Assembly (NCBI GenBank): GCA_965223295.1
Contig: CBDCWC010000003.1
Span: forward strand, 1,152,001-1,216,000
Direction: 5' to 3'
DNA: 64,000 bases
Source of the DNA: Nitrospirales bacterium
Lineage (GTDB): Bacteria > Nitrospirota > Nitrospiria > Nitrospirales > UBA8639
In this document: positions 11,613 to 59,736 of the stretch, piece by piece
How positions within the stretch are numbered: the stretch's first letter is position 1
Layout of the letters: every line of letters begins with the position of its first letter
The notes under the pieces: generated by a model
Seen by the model: the letters and a program-made list of their open reading frames with translations, nothing else
Databases searched by the model: none
What the model was told of the DNA's origin: nothing
Position numbers and translations under genes: made by a program

Positions 11613-13112
11613 TCATTCTCCCAATCCTAATAAAGGACACAATATGCGCAAGAGAGACCAAATTACGATACCGCCAATGACATCCAACAACAGTCCAGCT
11701 TGCACCATACGCACAATCGGCACACGTCCTGTGCCATAGACAATGGCATTAGGCGGAGTGGATACGGGAAGGACAAACGCGAGACTCGCAGCCATACATG
11801 TACCCAAGACAGGAGGAACCGGAGAAAAATTTGCAGAATGGGCAATGGCAATCAACACGGGCACCAGCATACTTGTGGCCGCTGTGTTGGAAGCCAGTTC
11901 CGTTAAGACCAGCGCCGTCAGAATAGCGACGCCCATTAAACTCCAGACCGACTCTATACCAAACAAGCCAACCATACTTTGGCCAATCGTGTGGGCGAGT
12001 TCGGTCTTGACCATGAGTTCACCAAACGCAATGCCTCCACCAAACAATAAAATCGTTCCCCAATGAATATTGGCCGCTTGTTTCCATGTAAGGACGAATG
12101 TCCCCTCGTGAAGATTTAACGGCAGCAGAAACAATAGGCCCGATGCAAAAATAGGAACAAGTTCTTTGGGAAGGTGGACTCGGACCCATTGGACAAACGC
12201 ATCGTCTGGTTCTAGCCAAATGGATAATAATGCTGGCAAGACCCATAAAAACACCGCTAAGAGAAAGACACCAAATGTGTAGGATTCTCCACGGGTCCAT
12301 GGCTCAGAAGGAGCCGTCGTCATGGTAAATGAATGATTAGCTGTTGATGCCAACGAAGAAGATGCATAGAGCCAATACAGCAAGGAAAACATCACGAGAA
12401 GCATAATTCCCGCCACGGGCAAACCCATTAACATCCACTGGTCAAACGAAATCGTTATATTCGCTTGTTCAGCCAGTAGTCCTATCCCAAGAAGATTAGG
12501 TGGCGTACCAATTAAGGTCGCGACGCCACCAATACCGGCTCCGTACGCCAAACACAGCAAAAAGCCCGTTTCAAACTTGCCGAGATCTTTTCCACTCTGC
12601 TGAAGGGCATTGAGCACCCCCAATGCAATAGGAAGCATGACTGCTGTAGCCGCCGTATTGCTAATCCACATCGACATGCCGGCCACTGCCAAACTCACCG
12701 CCATCATGATTCGAATAGGATTAGTACCTACCCATCTCCGGGAAAGGAGCCAATTGCCAAAGCGACGATCCAGACCATGGACCGTCAACGCCTCGGAAAT
12801 AAAAAAACTCCCAATAAACAAAAAAATAATGGGATGGGAAAACGCGGCAAAGACCGATTTCATGCTGTCTAAACCAGTCAATACACATAAGCCACAACCT
12901 AATAAAGCCGTGACGGGCAGAGGGATAGGTTCCGTAATCCACATCACCACCACCCACATCAATATCGCTGCCAAGGTACGCGCAGAACCAGAAAGCGAAG
13001 TTGGGAGAAACACAAACATCAATCCCGCAAGAACCGGAGCAATCAATAAACCTAAAAGATGAGGGGATGGTTTGGCTAAAGATCGAGAAGACAAGGAACT
13101 CATAGAGGCCAT
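11613..13112 (-). CDS. DASS (SLC13) family sodium:dicarboxylate/sulfate symporter
   Basis: WITEPIP, SMWISNTA, IGTPPN, TELASNTA, PVSTPPNAI; many transmembrane segments. Confidence 0.92.
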   Translation of the reverse strand: MASMSSLSSRSLAKPSPHLLGLLIAPVLAGLMFVFLPTSLSGSARTLAAILMWVVVMWITEPIPLPVTALLGCGLCVLTGLDSMKSVFAAFSHPIIFLFIGSFFISEALTVHGLDRRFGNWLLSRRWVGTNPIRIMMAVSLAVAGMSMWISNTAATAVMLPIALGVLNALQQSGKDLGKFETGFLLCLAYGAGIGGVATLIGTPPNLLGIGLLAEQANITISFDQWMLMGLPVAGIMLLVMFSLLYWLYASSSLASTANHSFTMTTAPSEPWTRGESYTFGVFLLAVFLWVLPALLSIWLEPDDAFVQWVRVHLPKELVPIFASGLLFLLPLNLHEGTFVLTWKQAANIHWGTILLFGGGIAFGELMVKTELAHTIGQSMVGLFGIESVWSLMGVAILTALVLTELASNTAATSMLVPVLIAIAHSANFSPVPPVLGTCMAASLAFVLPVSTPPNAIVYGTGRVPIVRMVQAGLLLDVIGGIVIWSLLRILCPLLGLGE

Positions 13113-13245
13113 GACGAGTAAGAACGATGATTTACTGTAACTAAGATTCTACAATCCAAGATCTACGGAATGTAGCAAGCATCATGGAAAATTCATAGTA
13201 CAAACATAAAATTCCCCTACCTAGAATCTTGTAAAAGACAATAAT

Positions 13246-13263
13246 AGTTCCTGACACCTTTAT
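13246..13263 (+). repeat. Short hairpin motif (consensus AAAGGT-TCCTGAC-ACCTTT), left edge of accessory island
   Basis: AGTTCCTGACACCTTTAT; related copies at 24172, 23443 (inverted, degenerate), 59714 (inverted) and 56995 (inverted, degenerate). Confidence 0.65.
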
Positions 13264-13278
13264 TAATTTATAGATCGT

Positions 13279-13809
13279 CTAGTTTTGCATTCTGACAATG
13301 AAACTTGCCAGTTGTTTGGCCCTCCTAACGAGATAGATGGCAATTCCTCCTATAACTAGGTGCCCCATAAATGCAAAGATCTGCCGCTCATAGATATTTT
13401 TTTGACTTTTTAAAAAGCTAAAGCTAAATCGATCATTCACAGAATCTTTTAGATCCAAAGGAAAAAGAAGGGAATTTACCCCATGCACTAGACCTGGCAG
13501 AACCATCCAGAATAATAGAACAATTCCGATGATACTGAAGGCTAGTCTATACCACTCATGGATTTGAATGGTCTCTGTTGATTCCGAGGTTTCGTCAGAA
13601 TTATATAGATAGCTGGCAATTATGGGGGCATACCGAAACAAAAGTCCTGCCATAATCCAAAAAATAATAGAAGGGATAAACAAAGGAAGGTAGGACCATG
13701 AAAAAAATATCTTCGCTGAGCAATAATTGAAAATGCCATTCAGGCCTCGAATGAAGGCATACAAACCCAGAATATTAAGGGCGACCTCAGTATATAGTTT
13801 TTGGTTCAT
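13279..13809 (-). CDS. Hypothetical membrane protein (about 4 TM)
   Basis: 176 aa, AT-rich, four hydrophobic segments; paralog immediately upstream. Confidence 0.75.
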   Translation of the reverse strand: MNQKLYTEVALNILGLYAFIRGLNGIFNYCSAKIFFSWSYLPLFIPSIIFWIMAGLLFRYAPIIASYLYNSDETSESTETIQIHEWYRLAFSIIGIVLLFWMVLPGLVHGVNSLLFPLDLKDSVNDRFSFSFLKSQKNIYERQIFAFMGHLVIGGIAIYLVRRAKQLASFIVRMQN

Positions 13810-13919
13810 CGGTGCTTGAAACTTCCTGTAAAAACAAAGGTATTTCTCTTTCTCAAAAAATATACTGTCGCCGCGACATTCACTCTTTACAAAGATTTAC
13901 TATAAATCATCAGGATTTT

Positions 13920-14460
13920 TCATTCGTGCGAATCTTGAAGTTTCAGAATGTATAGAGTGAGTCGTTTCGAATCGAATAACAAATACATGAAAGTTCCAGC
14001 TAGAAATAAAGTTAAGCCCCCATTAAATATCAATCTCCTCCACAAACCATCATTCGTATATACCTGGGCTATCTGAGTGGAAGTCGGTTCTAATAAAAGG
14101 AGAGACGCCGAGACCGTGGCACTGGATAGATAAATTGGAACGCTCCAGACGCTCAAAAATGCTCCGCAGAGAGAGTAGTGCTATGTGCCATTCTCGAATG
14201 TGACAATTGGGTGAAGGAAACTGTCCCTTCCCTCGATCGAATATTTCGCTAACTATTCCTGAAGAATGTTGGAGAAAAAACCACCCGAAGACCAAAAACA
14301 GGCAGGAAGCGGGGAGATCAGATCTTAAAAGCCCAATTGTTGAAAATACATTTGAAAATCCATGAAGACTCATGCTCTGGGAAATCTTGGCCACACCCTC
14401 GACTGAACTATAGAGACCCAGTATTTTTAGGATGATTTCTGTAAATCTCCTTGGGGACAT
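13920..14460 (-). pseudogene. Frameshifted paralog of 13279-13809
   Basis: ORFs 14050-14460 and 13920-14156 align to the N- and C-halves of the neighbour; break at (CT)4, 14168-14175. Confidence 0.75.
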
Positions 14461-14637
14461 AGGCTCCTATCTTTTCTTTCCCAGACATTTGGCCAAAATC
14501 TAACAGTAAGCTTGTTGCTACTACTATTATATGGCTCCTACTACTAAGACTACTGAATCGGGAAATTACCCATTTGTGCAATTAGGTAGTTAGGAGGGAA
14601 TACAATAACGATGCTCTATTATTTGCCGTTTATGTTA

Positions 14638-14752
14638 GGTCGGCGACAGGGGCTGAAGGTGCCTTCGAGGTTGGGTCGACGGGTCATACAATGCACACAT
14701 AATTCCTTACCGAATGATCTACCGCGCTGAAGGGGTTGACGAACGGCCTCCA
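14638..14752. ncRNA. Candidate structured RNA or DNA element, family unassigned
   Basis: GC-rich patch in an AT-rich spacer with nested pairing GTCGGC/GTCGAC and TGAAGG/CCTTCG. Confidence 0.3.
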
Positions 14753-14845
14753 ATTCCTCTTCAGAGATGTAGAAGGAGTAGGAAGAAATGAGACTGTTTA
14801 AAGGTAACTCAAATAAGAACTATTGAATCAGTACCATAGATATCC

Positions 14846-14882
14846 GGCACGAGGTCCACGACACAATTTCGGCCCTCGTGCC
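14846..14882 (-). terminator. Hairpin downstream of the PASTA-repeat gene
   Basis: GGCACGAGG...CCTCGTGCC perfect 9-bp stem, 18 bp after the stop; no clear U-tract. Confidence 0.5.
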
Positions 14883-14900
14883 AAGACAACCTCAGTGCAT

Positions 14901-17900
14901 TTACGGACTTTGGAGATTACAGCGAGCCGTGTTGCCAATGATATTATTGGGGCCATTAATCAAAAAGCCCTCACAATCATTACTGGTATTCCCTTGAAGA
15001 GTCGTCCCTTGAAGCTGCACCGTCGGAGCTTGAACCCCAGGGAACAGATCGCCCGGATGCAAGAATTTGTAGATCCCGCCACCCCCACCTAACGCCTGAT
15101 TGCCAGTCATGGAGGCATTCGTCACGCTGACATTGGCATTACCCGTGCTGAGACCGCCGCCAAAGTTCGCCTGATTATTGAGAAATTGTGAATTGCCGGA
15201 TATGGTGACGGTACCGTCTTGGGCCTGAACACCACCGCCACGACCTTCGGAAATATTATTCCTCACAATTGTCTCACTGATCACAAGCGTACCATCTAAG
15301 TGACTCAGCCCGCCGCCACTTCCGGCTGATTGGTTACCGGTGATGACACTATCCTCTACTGTGAGGTTTCCAGCAACATTCCGTATTCCGCCTCCAGTCG
15401 AGTTGTTAATGTTACCCCCTTGAATGGTGACTCCCGTAATGGTGACTGTAGGACTGCCTTGAGGAATATCAAAAACCCTATCTAGTCCACCGCCTAAAAT
15501 AATGACCGTAGACGGATTCCCCGAGCTGCTCGTGATTGTGAGATTATCAGTGATGTCAAGATCGCCTGTTGAGCCAGAATCTTCGTCCTGTCCCGGGAGA
15601 CTTATGGTGTAGGTGCCGGAAGGAAGCGTAATGGTCTGAGCACCGTCGAGGGCATTCGATTCCTGAACAGCCGCTCTAAGTGTACAGACACCATTTCCGT
15701 TTTGAGTTTCGCAAACTTGGTTTCCAGGATTCGCGTCAGCACCGTCATCGAACGTATTCACTCCCGTAGTATTTATCCCACTAGAGACCACCAGGTTCAC
15801 ATTCGAGCCTGGGGCCACGCTGGCCCCCGCCGTGGGGTTCTGACTGATGACATTGCCCGCCGCTACATTCCCACTGGCCTGTTGCGTGACATTGCCCACA
15901 CTGAGGTTTGCACCACTGAGGGTATTCCCGGCAGCTCCCTGTGTTTGCCCGACTACATTCGGCACCGTCACCTGGGCCGGGCCACTAGAGACCACCAGGT
16001 TCACATTCGAGCCCGGGGCCACGCTGGCCCCCGCCGTGGGGTTCTGACTGATGACATTGCCCGCCGCTACATTCCCACTGGCCTGTTGCGTGACATTGCC
16101 CACACTGAGGTTTGCACCACTGAGGGTATTCCCGGCAGCTCCCTGTGTTTGCCCGACTACATTCGGCACCGTCACCTGGGCCGGGCCACTAGAGACCACC
16201 AGGTTCACATTCGAGCCCGGGGCCACGCTGGCCCCCGCCGTGGGGTTCTGACTGATGACATTGCCCGCCGCTACATTCCCACTGGCCTGTTGCGTGACAT
16301 TGCCCACACTGAGGTTTGCACCACTGAGGGTATTCCCGGCAGCTCCCTGTGTTTGCCCGACTACATTCGGCACCGTCACCTGGGCCGGGCCACTAGAGAC
16401 CACCAGGTTCACATTCGAGCCCGGGGCCACGCTGGCCCCCGCCGTGGGGTTCTGACTGATGACATTGCCCGCCGCTACATTCCCACTGGCCTGTTGCGTG
16501 ACATTGCCCACACTGAGGTTTGCACCACTGAGGGTATTCCCGGCAGCTCCCTGTGTTTGCCCGACTACATTCGGCACCGTCACCTGGGCCGGGCCACTAG
16601 AGACCACCAGGTTCACATTCGAGCCCGGGGCCACGCTGGCCCCCGCCGTGGGGTTCTGACTGATGACATTGCCCGCCGCTACATTCCCACTGGCCTGTTG
16701 CGTGACATTGCCCACACTGAGGTTTGCACCACTGAGGGTATTCCCGGCAGCTCCCTGTGTTTGCCCGACTACATTCGGCACCGTCACCTGGGCCGGGCCA
16801 CTAGAGACCACCAGGTTCACATTCGAGCCCGGGGCCACGCTGGCCCCCGCCGTGGGGTTCTGACTGATGACATTGCCCGCCGCTACATTCCCACTGGCCT
16901 GTTGCGTGACATTGCCCACACTGAGGTTTGCACCACTGAGGGTATTCCCGGCAGCTCCCTGTGTTTGCCCGACTACATTCGGCACCGTCACCTGGGCCGG
17001 GCCACTAGAGACCACCAGGTTCACATTCGAGCCCGGGGCCACGCTGGCCCCCGCCGTGGGGTTCTGACTGATGACATTGCCCGCCGCTACATTCCCACTG
17101 GCCTGTTGCGTGACATTGCCCACACTGAGGTTTGCACCACTGAGGGTATTCCCGGCAGCTCCCTGTGTTTGCCCGACTACATTCGGCACCGTCACCTGGG
17201 CCGGGCCACTAGAGACCACCAGGTTCACATTCGAGCCCGGGGCCACGCTGGCCCCCGCCGTGGGGTTCTGACTGATGACATTGCCCGCCGCTACATTCCC
17301 ACTGGCCTGTTGCGTGACATTGCCCACACTGAGGTTTGCACCACTGAGGGTATTCCCGGCAGCTCCCTGTGTTTGCCCGACTACATTCGGGACAATGACC
17401 GGCTCGACAAACGTCGCAGTCACCTGTTGATCAGAACCCATCTCGACCGTGCATTGATTGCCCGACGTTGATAAACATCCCGTCCATCCAGAAAAGATTG
17501 ATAGCTGTCCGCCGTTGGGTCTTGTCGGGGTCGGGGTTAGTGTGACAGAGGTCGGTGGCTGGAGCAGATCATACTGAATCGTGCAATCGTTAAAACAATT
17601 TGTTTCCGACATATTCGGTCCCGGCCTAGCAGTGATCTGCCCTGTTCCGGTACCAGCGAAACTAACCGCAAGATTTGCAATGAATCCTCGCTCATATATA
17701 AGGAGACCAATCCCATTATGCGAGAAATTGGCTGTCACTAGATCGAGATCTTCATCTCCATCCAGATCTTCAATGTACAGCGCGTAGGGTACTTCATCGT
17801 CTTCTGAATCGAACAGCAAGTCTCGATTGGCCCCAGTATTCGGATCAACCTCACCATCAATGATTTTCTTGGGAAGGCCAGTTGTCGGAGTTGTCCTGTA

Positions 17901-19010
17901 TGGTTCAAAATCCAAGTGACTCGATTCAGAGTAGAGTTCGTCTTCTGAATGAGCATACCCCCGAAAAATCGTGACATTTCGACGATCAAAGTTGGAATTG
18001 ACCACCGCAAAATCTTGGTTCCCGTCCTTATCAAAATCCCCAATGGCGACGGAATGGGGCCCATCTCGTGTCGTAGCAGGCGAACCAACATCCACAGAAT
18101 TTGGGAACTGCCCAAAACCATTGCCAAAATAAATCGTTGCTGTGGAAAGAGTTCCGTTATGGGCAACCAGGATATCCTCGCTGCCATCCTGATCCATATC
18201 GGCAATGGCAACCGATCGCGGATTGACTCCATCTCGTTGTTCAATAAGAAGTGGGGATTCAAACTCAAAGGAATCCCGCCCCAGTAAAATGGAGACGCTC
18301 GAGTCTTGGGCAATAATGACATCGGGAATGGTATCGGCATTAAGATTCCCGACAGCGAGAGAACGCGAAGGGCTCTCCAACTTAATGGTCTTTCTGGGGA
18401 GGCTTATACGGCTCGGATCATCAAAGAAATACAACGAGTCATCCCCAATCACCGCAAGATCCGTGGTGCCAGATTGGTCAAAATCTCCTACAGCCATGGC
18501 TATGGGAGCGGTTCTTTCGCCAAAGCGCAGGATTGACCGGTTGGCAAGTGGGAAGCTCCCATTGCCATCTCCCAACAGGATCAAGATCCGTCCTGGTTTG
18601 GCCTGAGCTAATACCGCAAGATCTGGGTTATTATCTTGATTAAAGTCTCCCGACACCGCTGCCATCAAATCCAATGTACGTTTGGAGCGCTCTAAATCAC
18701 CCGTTCGTACCGAGATGCTTTCCCCAGGATCTTGAAATGTACCATTCTCTCTACCTAACAACAGGCGAAGACCATCGTCCCTCTCTTCCCCTTCATCTCG
18801 ATTGACTGCCACAAGGTCTAAGTGTCCGTCGCGATTAAAGTCAGCGATGACGACCTCCGTCGTCATTCGAGAGGGCCCAAAAAATCTGGTCGTGCGTTCA
18901 AATTCTGCGAAAGCGACACTGCTCAGGAGCGAAGTGAGACAACACATAAATAGCGCAACACCGAGTGCCCGCAGACGGGTGTATGGTTGAAGCAAGGCGT
19001 TCGCCACCAT
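14901..19010 (-). CDS. Large exported protein: FG-GAP/VCBS repeats, InlB-B-like repeat, 8 PASTA domains, CSLREA motif and beta-helix
   Basis: Signal peptide ending VAFA; repeated DFNxDGxxDL; VPNVVGQTQ..GNVISQNP..VNLVVS x8; CTLRAAVQESN; GGG-rich beta-helix tail; GGAGG precedes ATG at 19010 (ORF track starts 19094). Confidence 0.85.
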   Translation of the reverse strand: MVANALLQPYTRLRALGVALFMCCLTSLLSSVAFAEFERTTRFFGPSRMTTEVVIADFNRDGHLDLVAVNRDEGEERDDGLRLLLGRENGTFQDPGESISVRTGDLERSKRTLDLMAAVSGDFNQDNNPDLAVLAQAKPGRILILLGDGNGSFPLANRSILRFGERTAPIAMAVGDFDQSGTTDLAVIGDDSLYFFDDPSRISLPRKTIKLESPSRSLAVGNLNADTIPDVIIAQDSSVSILLGRDSFEFESPLLIEQRDGVNPRSVAIADMDQDGSEDILVAHNGTLSTATIYFGNGFGQFPNSVDVGSPATTRDGPHSVAIGDFDKDGNQDFAVVNSNFDRRNVTIFRGYAHSEDELYSESSHLDFEPYRTTPTTGLPKKIIDGEVDPNTGANRDLLFDSEDDEVPYALYIEDLDGDEDLDLVTANFSHNGIGLLIYERGFIANLAVSFAGTGTGQITARPGPNMSETNCFNDCTIQYDLLQPPTSVTLTPTPTRPNGGQLSIFSGWTGCLSTSGNQCTVEMGSDQQVTATFVEPVIVPNVVGQTQGAAGNTLSGANLSVGNVTQQASGNVAAGNVISQNPTAGASVAPGSNVNLVVSSGPAQVTVPNVVGQTQGAAGNTLSGANLSVGNVTQQASGNVAAGNVISQNPTAGASVAPGSNVNLVVSSGPAQVTVPNVVGQTQGAAGNTLSGANLSVGNVTQQASGNVAAGNVISQNPTAGASVAPGSNVNLVVSSGPAQVTVPNVVGQTQGAAGNTLSGANLSVGNVTQQASGNVAAGNVISQNPTAGASVAPGSNVNLVVSSGPAQVTVPNVVGQTQGAAGNTLSGANLSVGNVTQQASGNVAAGNVISQNPTAGASVAPGSNVNLVVSSGPAQVTVPNVVGQTQGAAGNTLSGANLSVGNVTQQASGNVAAGNVISQNPTAGASVAPGSNVNLVVSSGPAQVTVPNVVGQTQGAAGNTLSGANLSVGNVTQQASGNVAAGNVISQNPTAGASVAPGSNVNLVVSSGPAQVTVPNVVGQTQGAAGNTLSGANLSVGNVTQQASGNVAAGNVISQNPTAGASVAPGSNVNLVVSSGINTTGVNTFDDGADANPGNQVCETQNGNGVCTLRAAVQESNALDGAQTITLPSGTYTISLPGQDEDSGSTGDLDITDNLTITSSSGNPSTVIILGGGLDRVFDIPQGSPTVTITGVTIQGGNINNSTGGGIRNVAGNLTVEDSVITGNQSAGSGGGLSHLDGTLVISETIVRNNISEGRGGGVQAQDGTVTISGNSQFLNNQANFGGGLSTGNANVSVTNASMTGNQALGGGGGIYKFLHPGDLFPGVQAPTVQLQGTTLQGNTSNDCEGFLINGPNNIIGNTARCNLQSP
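15778..17390. repeat. Tandem array of eight 204-bp units (68-aa PASTA repeat)
   Basis: Units identical as far as I can read except one synonymous change at 15810. Confidence 0.95.
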
Positions 19011-19316
19011 TCGACTTCCTCCCATGAAACATGAAGCTTGAGATATTCTTTGATGGACAAAAACTTTTCCAGCAATCGCACCTCTGGTGAGCATGGTTGG
19101 GGCCTCCTCACTAACTCAAGAATGGTTTCAGAAAACTTTATTCAGTCAATGCGTTCTTACAATTCCTCTTATGAGGAATAGGATAGATTAGAAGAATCTC
19201 TTCATTCGTAAGATTCTTTAGCCAAGAAATAGCCAACTGGTTTTCCGGCTCGTATTGAGCCTTTCCTCTGAGGTACGAGAACACAAATTGCGAAGGAAGT
19301 TCCTTTGTTCAGATCT

Positions 19317-21029
19317 TTATTGAAGGACCACCGAATTGCCAGTGCCATTGACGACAATCAGAGCGGCATCGGGCGAGACATCAATTCCTTGTGTGGGTTG
19401 AAAGTTTGGGGCAATCGAAATTGTATTGCCAGATGGCGCGGAGACAAAACCATTCGTACAGCCTCCCCCGGCGCAAAGTGTATTATTGATAGCAGCAGTG
19501 CTGGAGCCATCTCCGAATAAGAGTGAGCCTCCTGTTAAGCCAAAGTTTGATCCTCCGGAAAGGGCCACCAGACTATCGGCTCCTAACTGACTGCCATTTG
19601 AGAGTGACACCAAATTGCCGTTGACCGCCAAGGTCCCTCCACCGGTGACATCGAAGAGAGACCCTGATGAGAACAAACTGCTTCCATTTAATTCCACAAG
19701 CGCCAATGCATCAGCAGGCAAACTCGCCACCAGTTGGCTCCCTGTAATCTGCACAGCATCTCCGGTCGTGGTAATTTGACTGGCCATAGGACTCGTACTG
19801 TTTGTGGAAACAGCTGCAATCAAAGGGGCGCTGGCCTCCAAAAGAGAGGCGTCAATGATTTCCACGGCAGATTGGGTTGCCGTCTGAGAATTTTGTATGG
19901 AGATCACAGGATCTGTTGACGTACCACGGAGCAGCCCTCCAGAAGACACCGAGACCAAAGAATGAATATCATCGGATCCACCTATGCCAATGTCAGTGTT
20001 TGTCAGAACTAAAGTACTGGTATTACTTTCAACTTGTTGACCCCGCGTTTCCACAACGTTCTCGTTTGAAATACTGGAGGATATGTCGCTTTCGGTAGTT
20101 GAGATAATAATGCCGGTCCAACCAGGGGCCGAGGGAGCGGAATCTATTCCGGCATCCGGCGTAAAGAGGGCTGCGACAAGCCCATTGGCCTGTGTGGAAT
20201 GCTGTTGCGCGATATACTGCCGAAGTTCTTTGGGGTTTGTTGTATGTTGCGGGGTTTGTTGCAAATCTTGGTTCTGGCAAGATGGGGCCGATACTTTTGA
20301 CTGTGGACCTATTTTCCCGTCTGTCACCTCAACACGATATCGTTCGTACACCGTCAACGGTGAAAATCCACCAAATTGAGATTCGATGATCACACGGCCA
20401 TGTAGGACCTCGATCGTTTCAACTCTTTTCCTCGCCGCAACATCCCTGTTCGCTTGTGAAAATATCCCTTGGTTGTGTCGGGCAAATTCTGTAAGGATGC
20501 GTTGAGGCTGTCGTTCGGTAGCAGCTTGTTCAGATGACAGATTCCTGACATTCGCTCGAAACATAGCTCCAGGTTTTGGACGGACAATCATGGTCGGAGT
20601 CTTAACAGGCACAGCTTCGGCCCTATTGCCACTCCGCCTTTTCGTAGACACACAGGTCTCCCCGCGCACCAACTGAATCACGTTGGGGAAATGCGGTGTT
20701 TGTTCGAGGGCCACTTCTGAATGCTCATTCATGCTGACCAAGGTCTCATCACCCACCAGCATACTCAGGATTGAATTCTGCCTCGTTTCTAGGCGATCAC
20801 CGTAAACCAAAGTCTCCTGTAGAGTGACTTCTTTAGACTGAGGCTGCCTGCTCAATGCAGAAGAATGGAGGCGAGCCTCCCCATTCATGTTTGACACAAT
20901 GCCCACAAATGATTGTGGGGCAAGGACTTGAGCATGCACAGGGATTCGTCCAGGAACAATGAGGAACAACCCAACTAATACCATTCCTGTCACGAGTTCT
21001 TGGCAAGCATTCTGGGTTTGAATTCTCAT
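19317..21029 (-). CDS. FecR-domain exported protein with Ser/Gly/Leu-rich beta-solenoid-like C-terminus
   Basis: Signal peptide (VHAQ); GDRLETRQNS..MNEHSEV..IQLVRG..VKTPT FecR-like pattern; AGGAAGG before ATG 21029 (ORF track starts 21101). Confidence 0.7.
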   Translation of the reverse strand: MRIQTQNACQELVTGMVLVGLFLIVPGRIPVHAQVLAPQSFVGIVSNMNGEARLHSSALSRQPQSKEVTLQETLVYGDRLETRQNSILSMLVGDETLVSMNEHSEVALEQTPHFPNVIQLVRGETCVSTKRRSGNRAEAVPVKTPTMIVRPKPGAMFRANVRNLSSEQAATERQPQRILTEFARHNQGIFSQANRDVAARKRVETIEVLHGRVIIESQFGGFSPLTVYERYRVEVTDGKIGPQSKVSAPSCQNQDLQQTPQHTTNPKELRQYIAQQHSTQANGLVAALFTPDAGIDSAPSAPGWTGIIISTTESDISSSISNENVVETRGQQVESNTSTLVLTNTDIGIGGSDDIHSLVSVSSGGLLRGTSTDPVISIQNSQTATQSAVEIIDASLLEASAPLIAAVSTNSTSPMASQITTTGDAVQITGSQLVASLPADALALVELNGSSLFSSGSLFDVTGGGTLAVNGNLVSLSNGSQLGADSLVALSGGSNFGLTGGSLLFGDGSSTAAINNTLCAGGGCTNGFVSAPSGNTISIAPNFQPTQGIDVSPDAALIVVNGTGNSVVLQ

Positions 21030-21519
21030 TGAAGCCGACCTTCCTGTTAGTTGAGTGTTGAGATACAGTGGTTGACCGTATTCAGCTACATGGGAAAACA
21101 AGGCTGAACCAGAAAGAATTGTCTTGAATCATTCCATTAGTTTGGCATTCAGTCAAGAAAAAAATTCGGAATCAAAAAATAACGAGTTAGAGAGCGCTTA
21201 CATATCGAATCAGAAAAACAAGTATGCTATGGTATCGGCCTTAAGCTCCAAGCATATTCCTTGAAAATTAATAGAACACCTATATATTTCACATTCAAGT
21301 TTACTGAAATATTTACGTGTTGCCCATCCAACAAACTGACGAGAGAGATACACGCCTGGCCAAATCGAGTCTACTTTCAATCTCTCACAATTGAAAACTT
21401 CGATTGGATAGAAAAGAAAAAGTCACAGGCCGCATGCTGACATATTGGGCCTATTGAATAATGATGATATCAACGGTCAAATTTCGTCTCTGTGACGTCA
21501 CATGTATGTCAGAGGCCTC

Positions 21520-21641
21520 GGGGCTGTTCAAAAAAGTCCGTTCAGCAAGGCTGCAGTCATTTTTGCGCGCGGAGCGCATTGGTATGACGTGAGCACGGGA
21601 AAAAGGCGAGAACACCGCTGGCGGCTTTTTTCAACAGACCC
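21520..21641. repeat. ~120-bp palindromic interspersed element, copy 2 (inverted relative to copy 1)
   Basis: Reverse complement aligns along its length with 754-874. Confidence 0.85.
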
Positions 21642-21725
21642 ATATTGGACCTACAACAATTCCTGTGTCAGTACTATGCACACCGTTCAATTAATCCCTT
21701 TTTATCAGGAGAGGACGCACGCCTT

Positions 21726-23387
21726 ATGTCTCACCGAAGAAGACAGACACGGCTTGGCTATAGCTGTGCCATCTTTTTAATCTCCCTGTTTTTTCTTACG
21801 CTTGCTTTGTTCACTTCCGTCCAAGCTGGGCCGCCGGACGCGGAAGTGCTTCTTGCTCAGGGCACATTAGCCTATGACCAACAGCAGTACGACAAAGCCT
21901 TGGCACTTCTGTTAGAAGCCAAGAAACAAGATCCAAAAAATTCCCGTGTGTACTATTACTTGGGGTTGGTTCACCTCGCTCGGCAAGAGCCTGGAAAAGC
22001 TGTGCCCTATCTAGAGCAGGGGATACAACTTCGGCCATCCGATGTCCACTCCCGCTATCAACTTGGGGCCGCTCACTTTGCTCTGCGTGATTACGACAAA
22101 GCGGCGCCACTGTTGTTTGAGGTACATAAAAAGCAACCGGAATTGGATAGTCTTGGCTTCTATGTGGGGTATTTACGATATCGCAAAAAAGATTATCAGG
22201 GAGCGCTCACAGCCTTCGAAGGTGTGCAAACAGAAGATCCAGAAACCCGGCAACTTGCTCGATTTTACCGAGGGATGACACTCGGCATCCTTGGCTTACC
22301 GCAGCAGGCCATTCAAGAACTGGAACAAGTTCAGCAGAATCGGGCCGTCTCACCCCTCACCTCTGCGGCCATTCGTATTAGGGATAATTTGGCCGCACAA
22401 AGAGTCGTTGATGAAAAGAACCCATTGAGGCTTCAACTCAGCGTTGGAGGATTTTACGACGATAATGTGAGAATCAATCCTGATCCGGTTGGGACGATTC
22501 CCAGCCCCAATCAGAATCAGCTTATTGACGATCTTCGTTCCCGCTCCACTCCCTCACCAGGATTCTTGACCTCACTCCTTGCAGAATACTCGTTTTTCCG
22601 TCAAGGCCCATGGGAGGGGATTGCTACCGGCTCGTTTTTCCAGACCGTTAATACAAACGACGGATTAAGTGAATTAAATATCCGTGAATTTTTAGGAGGG
22701 CTGGGAGGGTATTATCGAGGAGAGGTATGGCAAGTCCCCTATCAACTTGGCTTGCACTACAGTTTTTCCTATGTCTTCTTGGAGGACGATCCGTTCCTCA
22801 TGCGAAACCGGCCCACGCTGACTGGAGCGATTGTGGGTCCCTCGTTTACATTGCCCTATATCGGAAATGTCGGCAACCTCACAACTGTGCTGTATCGTTT
22901 CGAATACAAGACCTTTTTCGGGGAAATCGGAGATCATAACTCAAATTTCCGGAGAGAAATCCGAGATGGGCACAACAATATGATCGGCTTTCTTCATGCG
23001 TTTCGTTTCCTGCAGGATACCGCTCTACTGCGAATTGGGTACCAATACGATAATGAAAACACAGATGGAGCTGCGTTCGGGTACACTGGAAATCGGTTTT
23101 TGACTGGGGGGCAGGTCATCCTTCCATGGGGAAGCGTGAAGTTGAACTATGAGTATGACATCCATTGGCGAGCCTACAAGCGCCCTCAAAGTCTCTTTAC
23201 AGATCGAGATGGCTCCTTCGCTCAACGAAACGATATTCAGCAAACTCATGTCGTGCAAATTGTGAAGCCACTTCCCTATAGTCTCTCGGTTATGGCTCAG
23301 TATCAGGGAATCCGCAACTCTTCAAGAATCCCGCTCTATGACTACAAGAAAAATGTGTTTTCTCTCATCGTGACATGGACATATTAG
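21726..23387 (+). CDS. TPR-repeat plus C-terminal beta-barrel outer-membrane protein
   Basis: Signal peptide (VQAG); several TPRs (YYYLGLVHL, YQLGAAHF, FYRGMTL); YDDNV; alternating aromatic strands; ends LIVTWTY; SD-like AGGAGAGG before ATG 21726. Confidence 0.8.
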   Translation: MSHRRRQTRLGYSCAIFLISLFFLTLALFTSVQAGPPDAEVLLAQGTLAYDQQQYDKALALLLEAKKQDPKNSRVYYYLGLVHLARQEPGKAVPYLEQGIQLRPSDVHSRYQLGAAHFALRDYDKAAPLLFEVHKKQPELDSLGFYVGYLRYRKKDYQGALTAFEGVQTEDPETRQLARFYRGMTLGILGLPQQAIQELEQVQQNRAVSPLTSAAIRIRDNLAAQRVVDEKNPLRLQLSVGGFYDDNVRINPDPVGTIPSPNQNQLIDDLRSRSTPSPGFLTSLLAEYSFFRQGPWEGIATGSFFQTVNTNDGLSELNIREFLGGLGGYYRGEVWQVPYQLGLHYSFSYVFLEDDPFLMRNRPTLTGAIVGPSFTLPYIGNVGNLTTVLYRFEYKTFFGEIGDHNSNFRREIRDGHNNMIGFLHAFRFLQDTALLRIGYQYDNENTDGAAFGYTGNRFLTGGQVILPWGSVKLNYEYDIHWRAYKRPQSLFTDRDGSFAQRNDIQQTHVVQIVKPLPYSLSVMAQYQGIRNSSRIPLYDYKKNVFSLIVTWTY

Positions 23388-23442
23388 GAAATCTGGCACA
23401 TGACGTAGACAGGATGAAAAGGCCCTCTTCTATTACTCCTTT

Positions 23443-23462
23443 AGAAGGTGTGAGAACACTAT
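23443..23462 (-). repeat. Degenerate inverted copy of the hairpin motif just after the transposase stop
   Basis: AGAAGGTGTGAGAACACTAT versus AAAGGTGTCAGGAACCTTT. Confidence 0.45.
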
Positions 23463-23464
23463 GG

Positions 23465-24133
23465 TTAATTTCTCTTCGGACGCCCACGCGGGCGGAGGGT
23501 ACTTTCGAGATTCAGTCTGCGGGATATTCGTTGCACCCAAATCTCTTTGCCAAACGGTCGTCCGCGTTGGACGCACCGACGAACAGGCTCTAATTCATCG
23601 TCCGCTTGCGGATTGTTGACCCATTTCACCCACTGGCGTGGACGCTTAACTGGCCACTCGCTCAACCATTGGCTATGTTTAGGGCCTTGAAGACGGCGCC
23701 ATAAACTTGACCAATGCCAGTCTTCAGCAGATTTCACTAATTTGGCACGCAAGGCATTGCCTTCGACATACCGACATACGGTCAGGAAGTGTTCATCCGT
23801 TTGTACGGGAAATGATTTGAAACGACCTTGATACAGATGTCCGCTCCCTACTGAGTGATGTTGCGCATGCCAGCGTTGGGTGTGTGTCAGCGTGAGCCAG
23901 GCCATAAATCGAGATAACTCTCCATCTTGACGCGGCCATAGCACCAAATGCCAGTGGTTTGGCATGACACAATAGGATAAAATCCGCACGGGTGCATATT
24001 CCCGTGCTTCAAGCAGGACGCTTTCCCAAAGTTGATAATCTTGTGGTGACTCAAACATGACTTGCCGGCCATTGGCTCGATTGAGGACATGGTAGATAAT
24101 ACCACCGGCGGCTGCACGTAATGGTCGTCCCAT
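23465..24133 (-). mobile_element. HUH/Y1 transposase, REP-associated tyrosine transposase (RAYT)-like
   Basis: MGRPLR..YHVLNR, YCVMPNHWHL (HUH), GHLYQGRFKS, RYVEGN (catalytic Tyr region), WHWSS, RPRGRP tail. Confidence 0.88.
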
Positions 24134-24139
24134 GATAAA

Positions 24140-24168
24140 ATCTTAACCTTATGGTTTGTAAGGGTCAA
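24140..24168 (-). promoter_or_regulatory. Promoter for the transposase, probably leaderless
   Basis: TTGACC-17 bp-TAAGAT, then 6 nt to ATG. Confidence 0.6.
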
Positions 24169-24171
24169 TAG

Positions 24172-24191
24172 AAAGGTACCTGACACCATTT
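24172..24191 (+). repeat. Hairpin motif copy upstream of transposase, right edge of island
   Basis: AAAGGTACCTGACACCATTT. Confidence 0.65.
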
Positions 24192-24214
24192 TTAAAATTT
24201 ATACGAGAGCAGAA

Positions 24215-24673
24215 TTGGCGCAAAAGACTGCGGCACATCAGGAGGCCGGGGAGCGTATTGTGTTTACCAATGGCTGTTTTGATTTGCTTCATATTGGTCA
24301 TACGCGGTATTTAGAAGAAGCCAAACACCTTGGAGATCGTCTGGTGGTCGGCCTCAATAGTGATGATTCCGTCAGACAGTTATCTAAAGGTCCAGTTCGC
24401 CCAATCGTGACAGCTGCCCAACGCGCGGAAGTGCTTGCCGCTTTAGCTTGCGTGGACTACGTGACCATCTTTGACGAGCCAGATCCGTTGAATCTTATTG
24501 AAGCCATCCGGCCTAATATCCTGGTGAAGGGAGGAGATTGGGCACCAGATCACATTGTAGGAAAAGCATTTGTAGAAGCCCAAGGTGGATCGGTACGGAA
24601 TATCCCGCTTATCCCAGATATTTCTACGACAAAAATTGTTGAACACATCCTTGCCCATCACCCTTTGGCGTGA
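24215..24673 (+). CDS. rfaE2: D-glycero-beta-D-manno-heptose 1-phosphate adenylyltransferase
   Basis: VFTNGCFDLLHIGH, GLNSDDSV, LVKGGDW, STTKI; family-like sequence extends back to KIYTRAE at 24194 with no ATG. Confidence 0.9.
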   Translation: MAQKTAAHQEAGERIVFTNGCFDLLHIGHTRYLEEAKHLGDRLVVGLNSDDSVRQLSKGPVRPIVTAAQRAEVLAALACVDYVTIFDEPDPLNLIEAIRPNILVKGGDWAPDHIVGKAFVEAQGGSVRNIPLIPDISTTKIVEHILAHHPLA

Positions 24674-24720
24674 CCTCCCCAGAAGGCCTATCCTAAATCG
24701 TTTCGTTGTATCGTACCCCC

Positions 24721-27700
24721 ATGAAGCTCCCCTTAGTTGTTCAGACTTTTAAGAACCAGTTGTGGGCATTACAGCCCACCATTCCTGAGACGGCAGCTCC
24801 GCCCTGTGTACTCAGCACCCAACCCGGCTGTTTGGCGTTGGCAATGGCGCTGTCGGCTCAATTGGACGTTCACCTGTCTGCAACCGAGCCCCAGACCTGT
24901 CTCATTCTGACTGCCAAGCAGAAAGAAGCTGAACAACTTTACGAGGATATGAAATTTTTCGCTGATTTTCTTGATGTTGACCACTCCGGGCTTGCATTGT
25001 TTCCTCCTTGGTCCACCGTTCCCTACAACCCGGCACTTCCAGCGCATTCCGTCATTTGTCAGCGCGTGCGAGCCTTACATCGCTTGTCTCAGGGCAAAAA
25101 CACTGTGCTCATTAGTTCACTTCCGGCCGTGCTACACAAATTACTTCCACCTTCTGTTTTTTCCGAAGCCTGCTTTGTTCTTCGGGTAGGGGCAACTATT
25201 GAGCGGGGTTGGCTTCTTCGAGCGCTGGTTCGACTAGGCTATTCGCGAGGTTCGCTGGCAGAAGTTCCTGGTGAATTCAGCGTGCGAGGCGGAATTGTGG
25301 ATATATTCTCCACTGCCCATGATCATCCCGTTCGAATCGAATTTCTCGGCGATACAGTCGAATCCATTCGCACATTTGATCCATCCACACAAGAATCTGT
25401 CTCTCAACTTAAGGAAACTTGGATCCTTCCTACGCGAGAATTTATTCCGCCTCTCACCCAACCGGAGGAACTTTCCCCCATTACTCCAAGCCTGGAATGG
25501 GATCTCCCTCACTACTATCCCCAACTCGTGACACTCTGTGACTATGTACAACATCCCTTGACCGTTTGGCTCTCGCAGCCAATAGATTTGAATACGAACG
25601 CTGCTGATTTCTGGAACTTACTCCTGGAAACCTGGGAACAGTTGAAACCTGGCCATGGACACGCCGAACCAGATCAGCTGTATGAATCATGGGATACTGT
25701 CAAACTGTTCATAAGCATGTGTCCCACCATCTTATGGGATAGCCTAGCTCCCGACTCCATCACCATTCCTCATGTGCCGTTACCCTTGAATGCCCAATCA
25801 CCCGCCAGTGTAGGCTTGGGTGTACGAGGGTTGCCGTTTAAAGAAACCCTGACGAAACTCGATCAACTACGTGCAGAAACAGGAATTTTTTTAGTCGCGC
25901 GGAGTGCGGGGCAAGTCGAACGGCTCATTGCTCTGTTACACGACCACGGATTTCCTGCCAATACCTGGCAGCAACCTTTTCCTCAGGAAACCATCGACGG
26001 CCGGCTACCTTTCTATTGCCTGGAGGGTGAGCTATCGGCAGGATTTATTACACATGAGGGCCGGTTGGCCTTTGTGACCGAAGAAGAACTTTTTGGAAAA
26101 GGTATCAGGCATCGCCCCCAGACGAAAACCCCAACCGCCAAATTTTTCTCAACCTTAGATGATCTGAAAGAAGGCGACCTAGTCGTCCACCTTCAACATG
26201 GCATTGGTCGCTACGTGGGCCTGCGGCGTCTGGATGTCCAAGAATGCGTGAGTGATTATGTTTTGTTGCAATTTGGAGGCACCGACACGCTCTACGTACC
26301 CTTGGACCGGCTGAACCAGATTCATCGATATCGGGGAGCCGAACAGCGCTCACCTCGACTGGATCGGCTCGGCGGTACGGCTTGGGGAAAAACGAAAGCC
26401 AAAGTCAAAAAAGGCATAGAAGACATGACCGAAGAATTGGTCGAACTTTATGCCAACCGTGAAGTCGCACGGCGAGCCGCCTATCAGGAAGACACCTTGT
26501 TAGTACATGAATTCGAAGCGGGGTTTGAGTATGAAGAAACCCCAGACCAACAACGTGCCATCGAAGAAATTGGCCGGGATATGGAATCCCCTAAACCAAT
26601 GGACCGTTTGGTCTGTGGCGACGTGGGTTATGGGAAAACCGAAGTGGCCATGCGGGCTGCATTCAAGGCGATTCAAGCCAATCGCCAAGTGGCAGTCTTA
26701 GTCCCCACCACGCTCTTAGCTCAACAACATTATGAAAATTTCTCCATTCGGTTTGCGCCGTTCCCTGTGAAAATTGGAGTTTTATCACGATTCCAATCGA
26801 CGGCAGGAATCAAAGCCACATTAAAAGACTTAGCTGAAGGAGTGATCGATATTGTTGTTGGGACACATCGCGTGGTGCAAAAAGATGTGGTCTTTAAGCA
26901 ATTGGGGTTAGTCATTATCGACGAAGAGCAATGGTTCGGTGTACGTCATAAAGAACGCCTGAAACAACTTCGGACTCAAGTGGATGTCCTCACGCTTTCA
27001 GCCACACCGATTCCTCGAACCTTGCAAATGGCTTTTTCTGGCGTACGAGATTTATCAGTCATTGAAACGGCGCCGCCGGGCCGATTGGCGGTGGAAACTC
27101 AAGTGCTACGCTTCGATCCCGCGGTCGTCCGGGAAGCTATTCGGCGAGAATTGGCACGGGGTGGACAAGTGTACTATGTTCACAATCGCGTGGAAACCAT
27201 GGAGCAAACCGGCGCATGGTTGCAAGAATTGTTGCCTGAAGCACGAGTGCTGATGGCCCATGGGCAAATGCATGAAAAATTGTTGGAACGCGTCATGCTC
27301 CAATTTTTTCACCAAGAAGCGGATGTCTTATTAGCCTCGGCAATTATCCAATCAGGCCTAGATATCCCCAATGCCAATACTATTCTGGTGGACCGGGCTG
27401 ATTTATTTGGCCTTTCACAACTATATCAATTACGAGGCCGGGTGGGACGCGGCGGCCAGCAAGCCTTTGCCTACCTGTTTACTCCCAATGAAGAGACACT
27501 GAGTACGGATGCACAGAAACGGATGATCGCTATCCAGGAGTTTGCAGAATTGGGATCGGGTTTCCGCATTGCGGCCGCTGATTTAGAAATTCGCGGCGCG
27601 GGTAATTTGCTGGGCAAACAACAATCCGGCAATATTGCGGCTGTCGGGCTGGATCTGTACTTACAAATGGTGGAACAAGCCGTTCAACAGCTCAAGGGGC

Positions 27701-32478: not shown

Positions 32479-32646
32479 CACGGTCCGCACGGTTGGGGGA
32501 ACGTTGATCATCCTCGCGACCATTGGCCGGTCTGACCCTAGTCGCCGGAGACACGCCCGCTTGGTGGATAGCTACGTCTGGGGTTTGAATCCCCCTGAGG
32601 TCTTTGGTACTTTGCGATTCTCTCAAAAAGGCCTTTTAAAATTTCT
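32479..32646 (+). mobile_element. Eroded IS91/ISCR-like transposase tail plus oriIS-like end, copy 2
   Basis: CAC GGT CCG CAC GGT (T) GGG GGA ACG TTG ATC ATC CTC GCG ACC ATT reads like a decayed HCPHCGGTLxIIAxI; ends CCTTTTAAAATTTCT. Confidence 0.55.
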
Positions 32647-32711
32647 CGTCCCTCTATTCTCAATTCGATTGGCAGTCTATGCAGGGACCAACTGAGAATT
32701 CTAGGCCAAAG

Positions 32712-33910: not shown

Positions 33911-34031
33911 GCCGGTCAGACCCCACTCACAAGAGATACGCTCGCCCGTCGGACAGCGAGGTATAGGGATTGAATCCCCCGAGGCCTTGGGTACTTTGCG
34001 ATTCTCGCAAAACAGCCCTCTAAAATTCCTA
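33911..34031 (+). mobile_element. IS91/ISCR oriIS-like end, copy 3
   Basis: About three-quarters identical by eye to 32526-32646; ends CCCTCTAAAATTCCTA. Confidence 0.55.
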
Positions 34032-34079
34032 CTCCACCTACAAGTTGTAGATGAATAGACTGGTCCGATTCGCTATACT

Positions 34080-56408: not shown

Positions 56409-56945
56409 TTAGCCTTTTTGATAGACGCCTATTTGGTGACAATCGACGGGTGGAAAGTCTCTAGGAGCTGCTTTGATCCGTTGCGCGTGAGCGTCCGTCT
56501 CGGCGGTGACGCACACACGATAGAGTCCTGGGTTTTTCAGCCCTGGGCACTTTGTTTCTAATACTCCTGGGCGAATTTGCTTGGTTGACTGGTTCAAGAA
56601 ATTAAATGGACAGAAGGCGTCAGCTACACGATCTTTAGGTAATCCATTTCCATTGATCTCCTGAAAGTAGGCATGGATATGACCTTGCAGGTCTATCTGC
56701 CCAATGGTGGCATATTCTTTTTGGGGATCAGTTGCACAATCTGGACAATAGCGAAATTCTCTTGAAAAGCGAACGCGAACGGTAATTTCCTTTCCTGTTG
56801 GGATTGAGTGTTGTGGGGACAGCAATCTGACCTGAGGTGTTATAGAATCGATTTCACCACCTGAGAAAGACTCTGCAGCTGAGACAGATAAGGCAATGGC
56901 AGTAGTAAGCAATGACGACGTGAACGCGATAAATGTTTTATTCAT
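56409..56945 (-). CDS. Secreted Cys/His-containing hypothetical protein
   Basis: Signal peptide, CPDC, GHIHAY, six Cys; AGAGGA RBS. Confidence 0.7.
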   Translation of the reverse strand: MNKTFIAFTSSLLTTAIALSVSAAESFSGGEIDSITPQVRLLSPQHSIPTGKEITVRVRFSREFRYCPDCATDPQKEYATIGQIDLQGHIHAYFQEINGNGLPKDRVADAFCPFNFLNQSTKQIRPGVLETKCPGLKNPGLYRVCVTAETDAHAQRIKAAPRDFPPVDCHQIGVYQKG

Positions 56946-56994
56946 GCAGGTCCTCTCTAAAAAGAAAAAATTTTAAAAAAATGATAATGACCTC

Positions 56995-57020
56995 AAGATG
57001 CACAGGTACCTTCTAATAAA
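56995..57020 (-). repeat. Degenerate copy of the hairpin motif
   Basis: AAGATGCACAGGTACCTTCTAATAAA versus AAGGTGTCAGGAACCTTTTAATAAA at 59718. Confidence 0.4.
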
Positions 57021-59535: not shown

Positions 59536-59713
59536 TTTTCAAATTGTGAATACTATTGGTAAGCACGGGGTCATCGGTTGTCAGATCACCTGTCGACGAT
59601 CAGTGAGCTGTAGAAATGCCTCAAGCTGTTTCCAACGATCATGATTTACTTCGGTTCACTCGAAACAAAAATTAAGGACAAAAAGGAATTCAAATTTTCT
59701 CTCCATAAAGACT

Positions 59714-59736
59714 AATAAAGGTGTCAGGAACCTTTT
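59714..59736 (-). repeat. Best-conserved copy of the hairpin motif
   Basis: AATAAAGGTGTCAGGAACCTTTT; reverse complement shares GTTCCTGACACCTTTATT with 13247-13264. Confidence 0.7.

What the first reader, a model, noticed from the sequence alone, without database searches (positions are those of the whole stretch)
13246..24191. 11-kb cargo island bracketed by the same hairpin motif that flanks its RAYT-like transposase
Seen: consensus AAAGGT-TCCTGAC-ACCTTT occurs at 13246 and 24172 in direct orientation, where core genes (DASS, rfaE2) give way to accessory genes. An inverted degenerate copy follows the transposase stop, so the transposase itself sits between inverted copies. No integrase, DDE transposase or tRNA att site is visible. 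Knowledge: HUH/Y1 enzymes recognise short ssDNA hairpins; RAYTs are known for spreading REP/REPIN sequences rather than moving multi-gene cargo. Inference: a candidate RAYT-directed gene acquisition system in which ~20-nt hairpins delimit cargo. This is my leading candidate for an undescribed system.
Basis: partly seen in the sequence, partly recalled or inferred. Interest (0 to 1): 0.75.

Follow-up and report, generated by a model that had tools for sequence, protein, structure and literature searches.

The report
Sessile transposase beside a gene-gain hotspot
The 11-kb stretch is not one mobile island, but it fills a slot next to a long-resident single-strand DNA transposase gene whose 19-base end repeat marks, across this group of nitrite-oxidiser relatives, places where small genes come and go, which hints at a gene-capture role that has not yet been shown.

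Summary
Both 19-bp copies are real (13243 and 24172, two mismatches each) but neither folds a stable hairpin. The repeat is the terminal inverted repeat (TIR) of a TIRtron-type Y1 transposase. The 24172 copy is the transposase's own upstream end: gene and copy sit beside rfaE2 throughout one Nitrospirales lineage, single-copy and under purifying selection, so they are no island edge. What varies is the slot between the transposase stop and DASS: empty in 3 of 17 carriers, eight unrelated contents in the other 14, and no insert in 25 of 25 measurable genomes lacking the gene. Only 4 of those 14 have a DASS-side copy, and the 10.3-kb cargo here is a mosaic. Genome-wide, solo copies track the transposase (21 of 23 versus 3 of 27 genomes), sit at synteny breaks (23 of 27 sites), form mostly direct arrays, and one vapBC unit lies at two different sites with homology ending at both copies. 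That is 1 of 21 segments tested; no excision was seen. Verdict: an immobilised TIRtron whose repeats mark gene-gain hotspots; capture by the enzyme is plausible, unproven. The scan met TIRtrons and this idea before on other DNA.

The parts
11613..13112 (-). DASS transporter, core gene; left anchor of the variable slot
   Evidence: TIGR00785 above cut-off; found in 47 of 50 genus genomes
13243..13261 (+). solo TIR copy, outer (ACCTTT) end facing the cargo
   Evidence: 2 mismatches; a copy at the like place in G063 and G059, weakly G054
13279..13809 (-). 176-aa hypothetical membrane protein, low GC, not in G063's slot
   Evidence: no Pfam/NCBIfam hit; GC 0.39
14050..14460 (-). 136-aa ORF, possibly decayed
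   Evidence: no family hit
14628..14765 (-). decayed copy of the transposase 3' end (residues 177-222), same strand as the gene
   Evidence: tblastn 52% identity, E 4e-7; frames shown
14901..19094 (-). large secreted FG-GAP / 8x PASTA / CSLREA-type protein
19317..21101 (-). FecR-domain protein
   Evidence: PF04773
21447..21643 (.). high-copy unrelated repeat (MITE-like) between FecR and TPR genes
   Evidence: 263 blastn hits in the genome; depth spike in contigs
21645..23387 (+). TPR protein (54% paralog elsewhere in the genome)
23444..23462 (-). decayed downstream TIR of the transposase
   Evidence: profile score 6.5; position matches the intact TIR of distant family members
23465..24133 (-). 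Y1 HUH tyrosine transposase, TIRYT type, 222 aa, H60-W-H62 and Y122, C-terminal RPRGRP tail
   Evidence: PF01797; 4ER8 best match by sequence and fold; alignment
24140..24168 (-). sigma-70-like promoter for the transposase; -35 TTGACC abuts the TIR
   Evidence: consensus scan, not itself above chance; TTGAC next to the TIR recurs across the family
24172..24190 (+). upstream TIR of the transposase, under strong constraint
   Evidence: identical 19-mer in 11 of 14 orthologous loci with dS 0.8-3
24215..24673 (+). rfaE2 (heptose-1-phosphate adenylyltransferase), core gene; right anchor
   Evidence: TIGR02199 above cut-off
59717..59735 (-). perfect solo TIR copy between mnmG and rsmG, a second variable slot

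Best explanation
An immobilised TIRtron. A TIR-transposase-TIR unit inserted once between DASS and rfaE2 in an ancestor of most of the genus; its downstream TIR decayed, so the gene stays put, while gene and upstream TIR (beside its promoter) are kept by selection (shown by comparison). The enzyme binds the 19-bp TIR, probably by sequence with help from its basic RPRGRP tail on the A/T flanks, and nicks one strand at or near the outer end (inferred from the HUH family and from short duplications there). This seeds about 5-20 solo copies per genome and makes those copies, and the gene's own 3' end, entry points for foreign DNA by strand transfer or by recombination between copies (inferred). 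The 10.3 kb here built up in several steps at such a point; it is not one transposon. Small units such as toxin-antitoxin pairs may sometimes move as precise copy-to-copy cassettes (one example).
For: One gain, one loss on the host tree; single copy, dN/dS 0.05-0.09, upstream TIR kept in 14 of 14, downstream strong in 1 of 14. Slot empty in 25 of 25 measurable genomes without the gene; 14 of 17 carriers hold cargo of 8 unrelated kinds. mnmG-rsmG gap 776-11,298 nt in 13 genomes, 12 with a copy there, versus 101-148 nt in 24 without. Copies at synteny breaks 57 of 62 versus 67 of 170 control gaps; 23 of 27 distinct sites; an unrelated repeat 3 of 12. Neighbours within 3 kb direct in 19 of 24. 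A vapBC unit at two non-orthologous sites, 90% identical against 77-80% for most flanking core DNA, begins and ends at copies and shares a rare GATACC variant (14 of 113). Outer-end pieces repeat within 30 nt in 36 of 247 copies, inner-end pieces in 10.
Against: Only 1 of 21 inter-copy segments has a two-ended homolog elsewhere. The same vapBC family occurs in six more genomes with homology over the genes only, four with no copy nearby, three of them without the transposase. 10 of 14 cargo-bearing slots lack a DASS-side copy; one holds a Mutator IS. Against convergent control gaps alone the enrichment is modest (23 of 27 versus 17 of 29, p 0.04). Homology also stops at the copy on the other side in several pairs, and intergenic DNA is largely saturated. 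The zwf-tal copy is inherited with no cargo. Carriers are kin. A second TIR family lies about 55 nt 5' of the copies in the best arrays.
Confidence: 0.5

Rival explanations
1. Passive co-location. An ordinary TIRtron spreads REP-like solo copies into permissive intergenic gaps, mostly 3' of genes. Accessory genes arrive in the same gaps by other routes, and a first insertion makes a gap tolerant of more. The copies mark plastic sites but do not cause gene gain.
For: Genes point toward the copy on most sides (57 of 95 and 69 of 96); convergent control gaps are already broken in 17 of 29; most cargo is unbracketed; TA modules occur without copies; Di Nocera 2013 (PMC3733652) describes moderately abundant TIR families with no cargo role.
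Against: The two-ended vapBC unit; a Phd/ParE unit 89% identical at two sites ending exactly at a copy; direct-orientation bias; an unrelated repeat in control gaps is not enriched at breaks (3 of 12).
Confidence: 0.33
2. The copies are targets for other agents: the second TIRYT of this genome (GGGGTCAGAC ends), insertion sequences that target REP-like repeats, or another recombinase.
For: Second TIRtron at C3:407785 with 65 GGGGTCAGAC 10-mers in the genome; its motif lies just 5' of the copies in the G062 and G006 arrays; GGGGTCAGAC-type control gaps broken in 5 of 7; REPs are known IS targets (PMC8450116, passages).
Against: Homology of the shared units ends at this motif, not at the other; the motif tracks this transposase.
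Confidence: 0.12
3. One reading: the 11 kb from 13243 to 24190, transposase included, is one element delimited by two direct hairpins and moved as a unit.
For: Two direct copies do flank the stretch; G063 has both with related PASTA/FecR/TPR genes between.
Against: Transposase and 24172 copy are fixed beside rfaE2 with or without cargo; cargo differs even from G063 (70-78% versus 83-88% for flanks, other genes added); copies do not fold; a second strain holds the same FecR-TPR-transposase-rfaE2 sequence with no joint.
Confidence: 0.05

Closest known systems
TIRtron / TIRYT (Di Nocera et al. 2013, PMC3733652; read abstract, passages and section 16), probably TnpA-Y1 subclass 2.1 (Quentin et al. 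2018, 10.1101/279083; passages) = RAYT group 1 (Bertels et al. 2017, PMC5581495; passages)
   Same: Y1 HUH enzyme between inverted repeats unrelated to GTAG REPs; repeat partly self-complementary, GGTGTCAG is one change from GGGGWSAS and some kin carry GGGGTC/GGGGAC; low-copy dispersed family.
   Different: Here the gene is sessile with one decayed end; Y---NA instead of Y---NP; no Pfam HTH; copies are solo or in direct arrays rather than tight dimers; link to variable gene content, which the passages read do not describe.
REP-RAYT / REPIN system (E. coli TnpA-REP, PDB 4ER8; Corneloup et al. 2021, PMC8266576, passages)
   Same: Same fold and catalytic motifs; single copy, vertical, purifying selection; repeats mostly 3' of genes.
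   Different: No GTAG foot, no stable hairpin, 5-20 copies not hundreds; below the NF047646 cut-off (67.9 versus 80 bits).
tnpA-REP / prochlorosin association in picocyanobacteria (Laurenceau et al., 10.1101/2020.03.09.984088; both parts of the text read)
   Same: Same subclass proposed; variable genes face the transposase 3' end; truncated C-terminal fragments lie among them.
   Different: One gene family there, unrelated cargo here; they found no inverted repeats, and their added note reports no strong evidence for causation.
Integrons (recalled knowledge)
   Same: Sessile enzyme gene next to a variable slot; direct arrays of short sites between single genes and TA pairs.
   Different: HUH enzyme, not a tyrosine recombinase; sites are 19 bp without attC structure; slot lies at the gene's 3' end; arrays are short, dispersed and not co-oriented.
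IS200/IS605 and IS91-type one-ended mobilisation (recalled knowledge)
   Same: ssDNA HUH chemistry that could move neighbouring DNA with only one defined end.
   Different: No subterminal hairpins with guide tetranucleotides were found; the gene does not multiply.

Membership tests
TIRtron/TIRYT | Y1 transposase with HUH and catalytic Tyr | tested here: met
   PF01797 in 54 of 54; H60, H62, Y122 invariant; fold matches 4ER8
TIRtron/TIRYT | gene flanked by terminal inverted repeats unrelated to GTAG REPs | tested here: met
   family: upstream 50, downstream 43, both 39 of 59; this copy: upstream intact, downstream decayed
TIRtron/TIRYT | GGGGWSAS motif in most TIRs | tested here: inconclusive
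   GGTGTCAG, one mismatch; some kin show GGGGTC/GGGGAC; the paper says not all TIRs carry it
TIRtron/TIRYT | moderately abundant dispersed TIR family in some hosts | tested here: met
   11 strong sites in this genome; co-occurs with the gene
TnpA-Y1 subclass 2.1 | class 2 signature Y---NP | tested here: not met
   YVEGNA here; NA in 43, NP in 14 of 60 kin, 3 unmatched
TnpA-Y1 subclass 2.1 | C-terminal extension with HTH similarity | tested here: inconclusive
   helical extension predicted; no HTH Pfam hit in 54 members; the paper's own profiles were not available
REP-RAYT (REPtron) | GTAG-footed hairpin REPs or REPINs flanking the gene | tested here: not met
   none in the flanks; copies do not fold; NF047646 below cut-off
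REP-RAYT (REPtron) | single copy, vertical inheritance | tested here: met
Integron | IntI tyrosine recombinase, attI, attC | tested here: not met
   no integrase family among the region's ORFs; no attC model was run
Integron-like cassette system (function) | units bounded by sites, found at different loci | tested here: inconclusive
   1 of 21 segments two-ended; one more one-ended
Integron-like cassette system (function) | enzyme-dependent excision and integration | not testable with these tools
   only assembled contigs were available; no joint seen
Composite transposon / single island | whole stretch present or absent as a unit | tested here: not met

The most novel reading that the evidence does not exclude
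A domesticated TIRYT acts as the integrase of a dispersed, integron-like system: gene-plus-TIR units (often toxin-antitoxin pairs) are excised and inserted copy-to-copy at resident 19-bp sites by HUH single-strand chemistry, giving polarised mini-arrays at a few inherited chromosomal hotspots. It would be a host-useful function for a RAYT-class enzyme and a site-specific gene-capture system without a tyrosine or serine recombinase.
Probability: 0.3. Interest if true: 0.82.

Novelty: new variant of a known kind. Interest (0 to 1): 0.52.

Why it matters
Why RAYT-class genes persist as single, vertically inherited copies is an open question (PMC5581495), and TIRYTs appear in only two works in the library searched, neither with bench data in the passages read. 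This case gives a defined enzyme, a 19-bp site, a predicted reactive end and one natural candidate cassette, so the idea that such enzymes drive gene gain becomes directly testable. If true it adds a new route of gene acquisition in nitrifiers and Planctomycetes and a compact 222-aa insertion tool. If false it is a tidy example of an immobilised TIRtron.

Tried and rejected
Hairpin reading: ssDNA folding gave no stable structure for the two bracket copies. Quentin class 3 considered for its Planctomycetes bias and rejected: it has a Y-Q signature and CnGA feet. AT-hook: only 1 of 54 members hits the Pfam model, E 0.07, so the tail's role rests on a recalled motif. Further transposase 3' fragments in relatives' loci: none found. 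Candidate moved units L203/L215, L196/L203 and L176/L178/L195 were dropped as evidence of movement because they lie in the same region of different genomes. L077/L200 (96% over both sides) is a transferred block carrying a copy, not delimited by it. Metagenome scan gave eight close loci, no near-identical strain pair with different cargo. Literature searches for cargo capture by RAYT/TIRYT returned no such description; the library lacks most subscription journals, bioRxiv supplements are closed, and figures and supplements of Di Nocera 2013 and Quentin 2018 (TIR lists, subclass profiles) were not seen.
Full report
OBSERVATION. The window is G000:C3:1152001-1216000; close relatives of its transposase are titled Nitrospirales. 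The two direct copies exist: 13243-13261 and 24172-24190, each two mismatches from AAAGGTTCCTGACACCTTT. The genome has 13 hits with at most three mismatches (two are the two strands of one site) against 0, 1 and 0 in three block shuffles; a profile trained on such copies scores 12 hits at 21 bits or more against 0 in two shuffles. The inverted copy after the stop (23444-23462) has six mismatches and scores 6.5. Neither bracket copy folds as ssDNA (0 and -0.4 kcal/mol); a perfect copy gives -3.2, z -1.6. Between DASS and the transposase lie two hypothetical ORFs, a decayed copy of the transposase 3' end (14628-14765, 52% identity), an FG-GAP/PASTA protein, a FecR protein, an unrelated high-copy repeat and a TPR protein.

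THE ENZYME AND ITS REPEAT. The 222-aa protein is a Y1 HUH transposase (PF01797), below the curated RAYT cut-off (67.9 versus 80 bits), with E. coli TnpA-REP 4ER8 as best match by sequence and by predicted fold. Kin at 55-93% identity occur in Nitrospirota, Planctomycetota, Proteobacteria and CPR bacteria (best 80 of 332 kept). Of 59 with enough flank, 50 have the motif just upstream, 43 just downstream in the opposite orientation, 39 both; the upstream copy usually abuts TTGAC. So the motif is a terminal inverted repeat. PNHWH is in 60 of 60, a C-terminal GR motif (mostly RPRGRP) in 57, and the Tyr motif is Y---NA in 43 and Y---NP in 14. This matches the TIRtron/TIRYT description (PMC3733652), which Quentin et al. 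equate tentatively with subclass 2.1. The RPRGRP tail resembles an AT-hook (recalled; Pfam support 1 of 54).

THE RIGHT BRACKET IS NOT AN ISLAND EDGE. An ortholog at 72% identity or more is in 23 of 50 genus genomes, one copy each, split by contig ends in a few. Wherever the neighbour was visible it lies head to head with rfaE2, with the copy between. A tree of 29 rfaE2+mfd rows needs two changes, one gain and one loss. dN/dS against 13 orthologs is about 0.05-0.09 with dS 0.8-3 (one saturated); the upstream copy is strong in 14 of 14 and identical in 11, the downstream one strong in 1 of 14. The element is sessile and kept by selection.

THE SLOT IS HYPERVARIABLE. From the coordinate tables (my subtraction), DASS and rfaE2 matches lie 219-499 nt apart in all 25 measurable genomes of the 27 without the ortholog. 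In the 17 of 23 carriers with DASS and transposase on one contig, the gap is 81-205 nt in three and 625-19,495 nt in 14, which fall into eight groups with no tblastx similarity between them: vapBC, a signal peptidase, a PEP-CTERM protein, a Mutator IS, hypothetical genes. G063, the closest relative, shares PASTA/FecR/TPR at 70-78% nucleotide identity (one FecR piece 65%) against 83-88% for the flanks, adds two large genes and lacks the two small ORFs. With respect to the cargo the copies are inverted, outer ends facing in. Contigs of four runs, two of a second strain, cover 17600-25600 with no joint at the motif.

GENOME-WIDE BEHAVIOUR. The exact 13-mer core is in 21 of 23 carriers and 3 of 27 others. 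The window's third copy sits between mnmG and rsmG: that gap is 776-11,298 nt in 13 genomes of the main carrier clade, 12 with a copy listed there, and 101-148 nt in 24 genomes without one, two of them carriers (13 genomes not measurable). I fetched 80 regions around copies or these sites and 20 control regions of 20 kb at round coordinates from seven carriers. Measured against G000, 57 of 62 classifiable copies (40 more had no anchors) lie at synteny breaks, against 67 of 170 control gaps (28 unclassifiable) and 17 of 29 convergent ones. Collapsed, 23 of 27 sites are broken; Fisher p is 7e-9 against 34 of 134 control intervals and 0.04 against convergent gaps, both overstated because genomes are kin. 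Control gaps with the unrelated repeat are broken in 3 of 12, those with a GGGGTCAGAC-type motif in 5 of 7. Neighbouring copies within 3 kb are direct in 19 of 24 pairs, some from the same array or short tandem doubles; near distant kin, by contrast, tight inverted dimers are common (17 of 25 pairs within 100 nt). About 22 of 104 copies have a toxin-antitoxin gene next to them, against 7 such ORFs at 199 control gaps (hand counts). Pieces of the outer end recur within 30 nt in 36 of 247 copies, pieces of the inner end in 10, pointing to the outer end as the reactive side (inference).

CASSETTE EVIDENCE. A 943-nt vapBC unit lies in G062 and G006 between different anchor genes, 90% identical where flanking core DNA is mostly 73-80% (mnmG 89%). 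Homology starts inside one copy and ends two bases after the next; both left copies carry the GATACC variant seen in 14 of 113 copies, as a copy-to-copy crossover would leave. A Phd/ParE unit, 89% identical in G063 and G016 at different sites, ends exactly at a copy but has none at its far end. Against: this is 1 of 21 inter-copy segments; six more genomes hold the same vapBC family with homology over the genes only, four with no copy nearby; homology also stops at the copy from the other side in several pairs, and intergenic DNA is mostly saturated; the zwf-tal copy is inherited without cargo; a second TIRtron with GGGGTCAGAC ends exists in G000 and its motif lies just 5' of the copies in these arrays.

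MECHANISM. Shown: TIR identity of the motif, sessile and selected gene, piecemeal cargo, association of copies with gene turnover. Inferred: binding and nicking at the TIR, as TnpA-REP cleaves and strand-transfers ssDNA near REPs (PMC8266576), and entry of foreign DNA at nicked copies.

COMPARISON AND NOVELTY. It works like a RAYT in inheritance and may work like an integron in effect; by membership it is a TIRtron-type element with one decayed end, not a REPtron and not an integron, and it fails the class 2 Y---NP signature. The nearest published idea is the tnpA-REP/prochlorosin association (10.1101/2020.03.09.984088), which also reports C-terminal fragments and whose authors later found no strong evidence for causation. 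Six searches found no account of TIRYT-linked cargo capture. The scan's notes list TIRtrons in other genomes and one earlier rejection of a cassette reading; I had reached the TIRYT paper before reading them. Verdict: new variant of a known kind, interest 0.52; cassette system 0.3 likely, 0.82 if true.

Noticed in passing
window 21447-21643 (and 753-869): High-copy repeat, 263 blastn hits in the genome and very high contig depth; MITE-like, unrelated to the TIR.
   Followed up: partly
G000 C3:407785-408477: Second Y1 transposase (YIELNP) between GGGGTCAGACTCGA inverted repeats, a textbook TIRtron; 65 GGGGTCAGAC 10-mers in the genome.
   Followed up: partly
L078, L079, L090: Compound repeat: the GGGGTCAGAC-family motif, about 55 nt, then this TIR; two TIRYT sites linked in the same arrays.
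   Followed up: partly
window 15778-17505: Eight 204-nt PASTA repeats, seven identical at DNA level; G063 has a longer paralog plus a second one. Recent expansion or assembly artefact.
   Followed up: no
window 56409-59735: Two genes without Pfam hits (178 and 565 aa) inserted between mnmG and rsmG next to the perfect copy.
   Followed up: partly
L068:5992: In G063 the mnmG-rsmG copy is in the opposite orientation to the seven other fetched loci and to G000, with no cargo.
   Followed up: no
L031:11134-11478: In G012 the DASS 5' end (residues 18-132) is duplicated inside the slot beside a vapBC pair.
   Followed up: no
G000 C3:90969 and L070, L090, L198, L201: secA-nuoA interval is a third inherited copy site with different contents.
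   Followed up: partly
window 32526-32656 and 33911-34040: Two diverged 130-nt direct repeats 1385 nt apart, with GGTCTGACCC/GGTCAGACCCC cores.
   Followed up: no
window 52430-52945 and 58843-59380: 294-nt internal repeats in two large accessory genes near mnmG.
   Followed up: no
L050, L051 (G002, G053): A 60%-identical paralog at another locus in two genomes whose DASS-rfaE2 site is empty.
   Followed up: no
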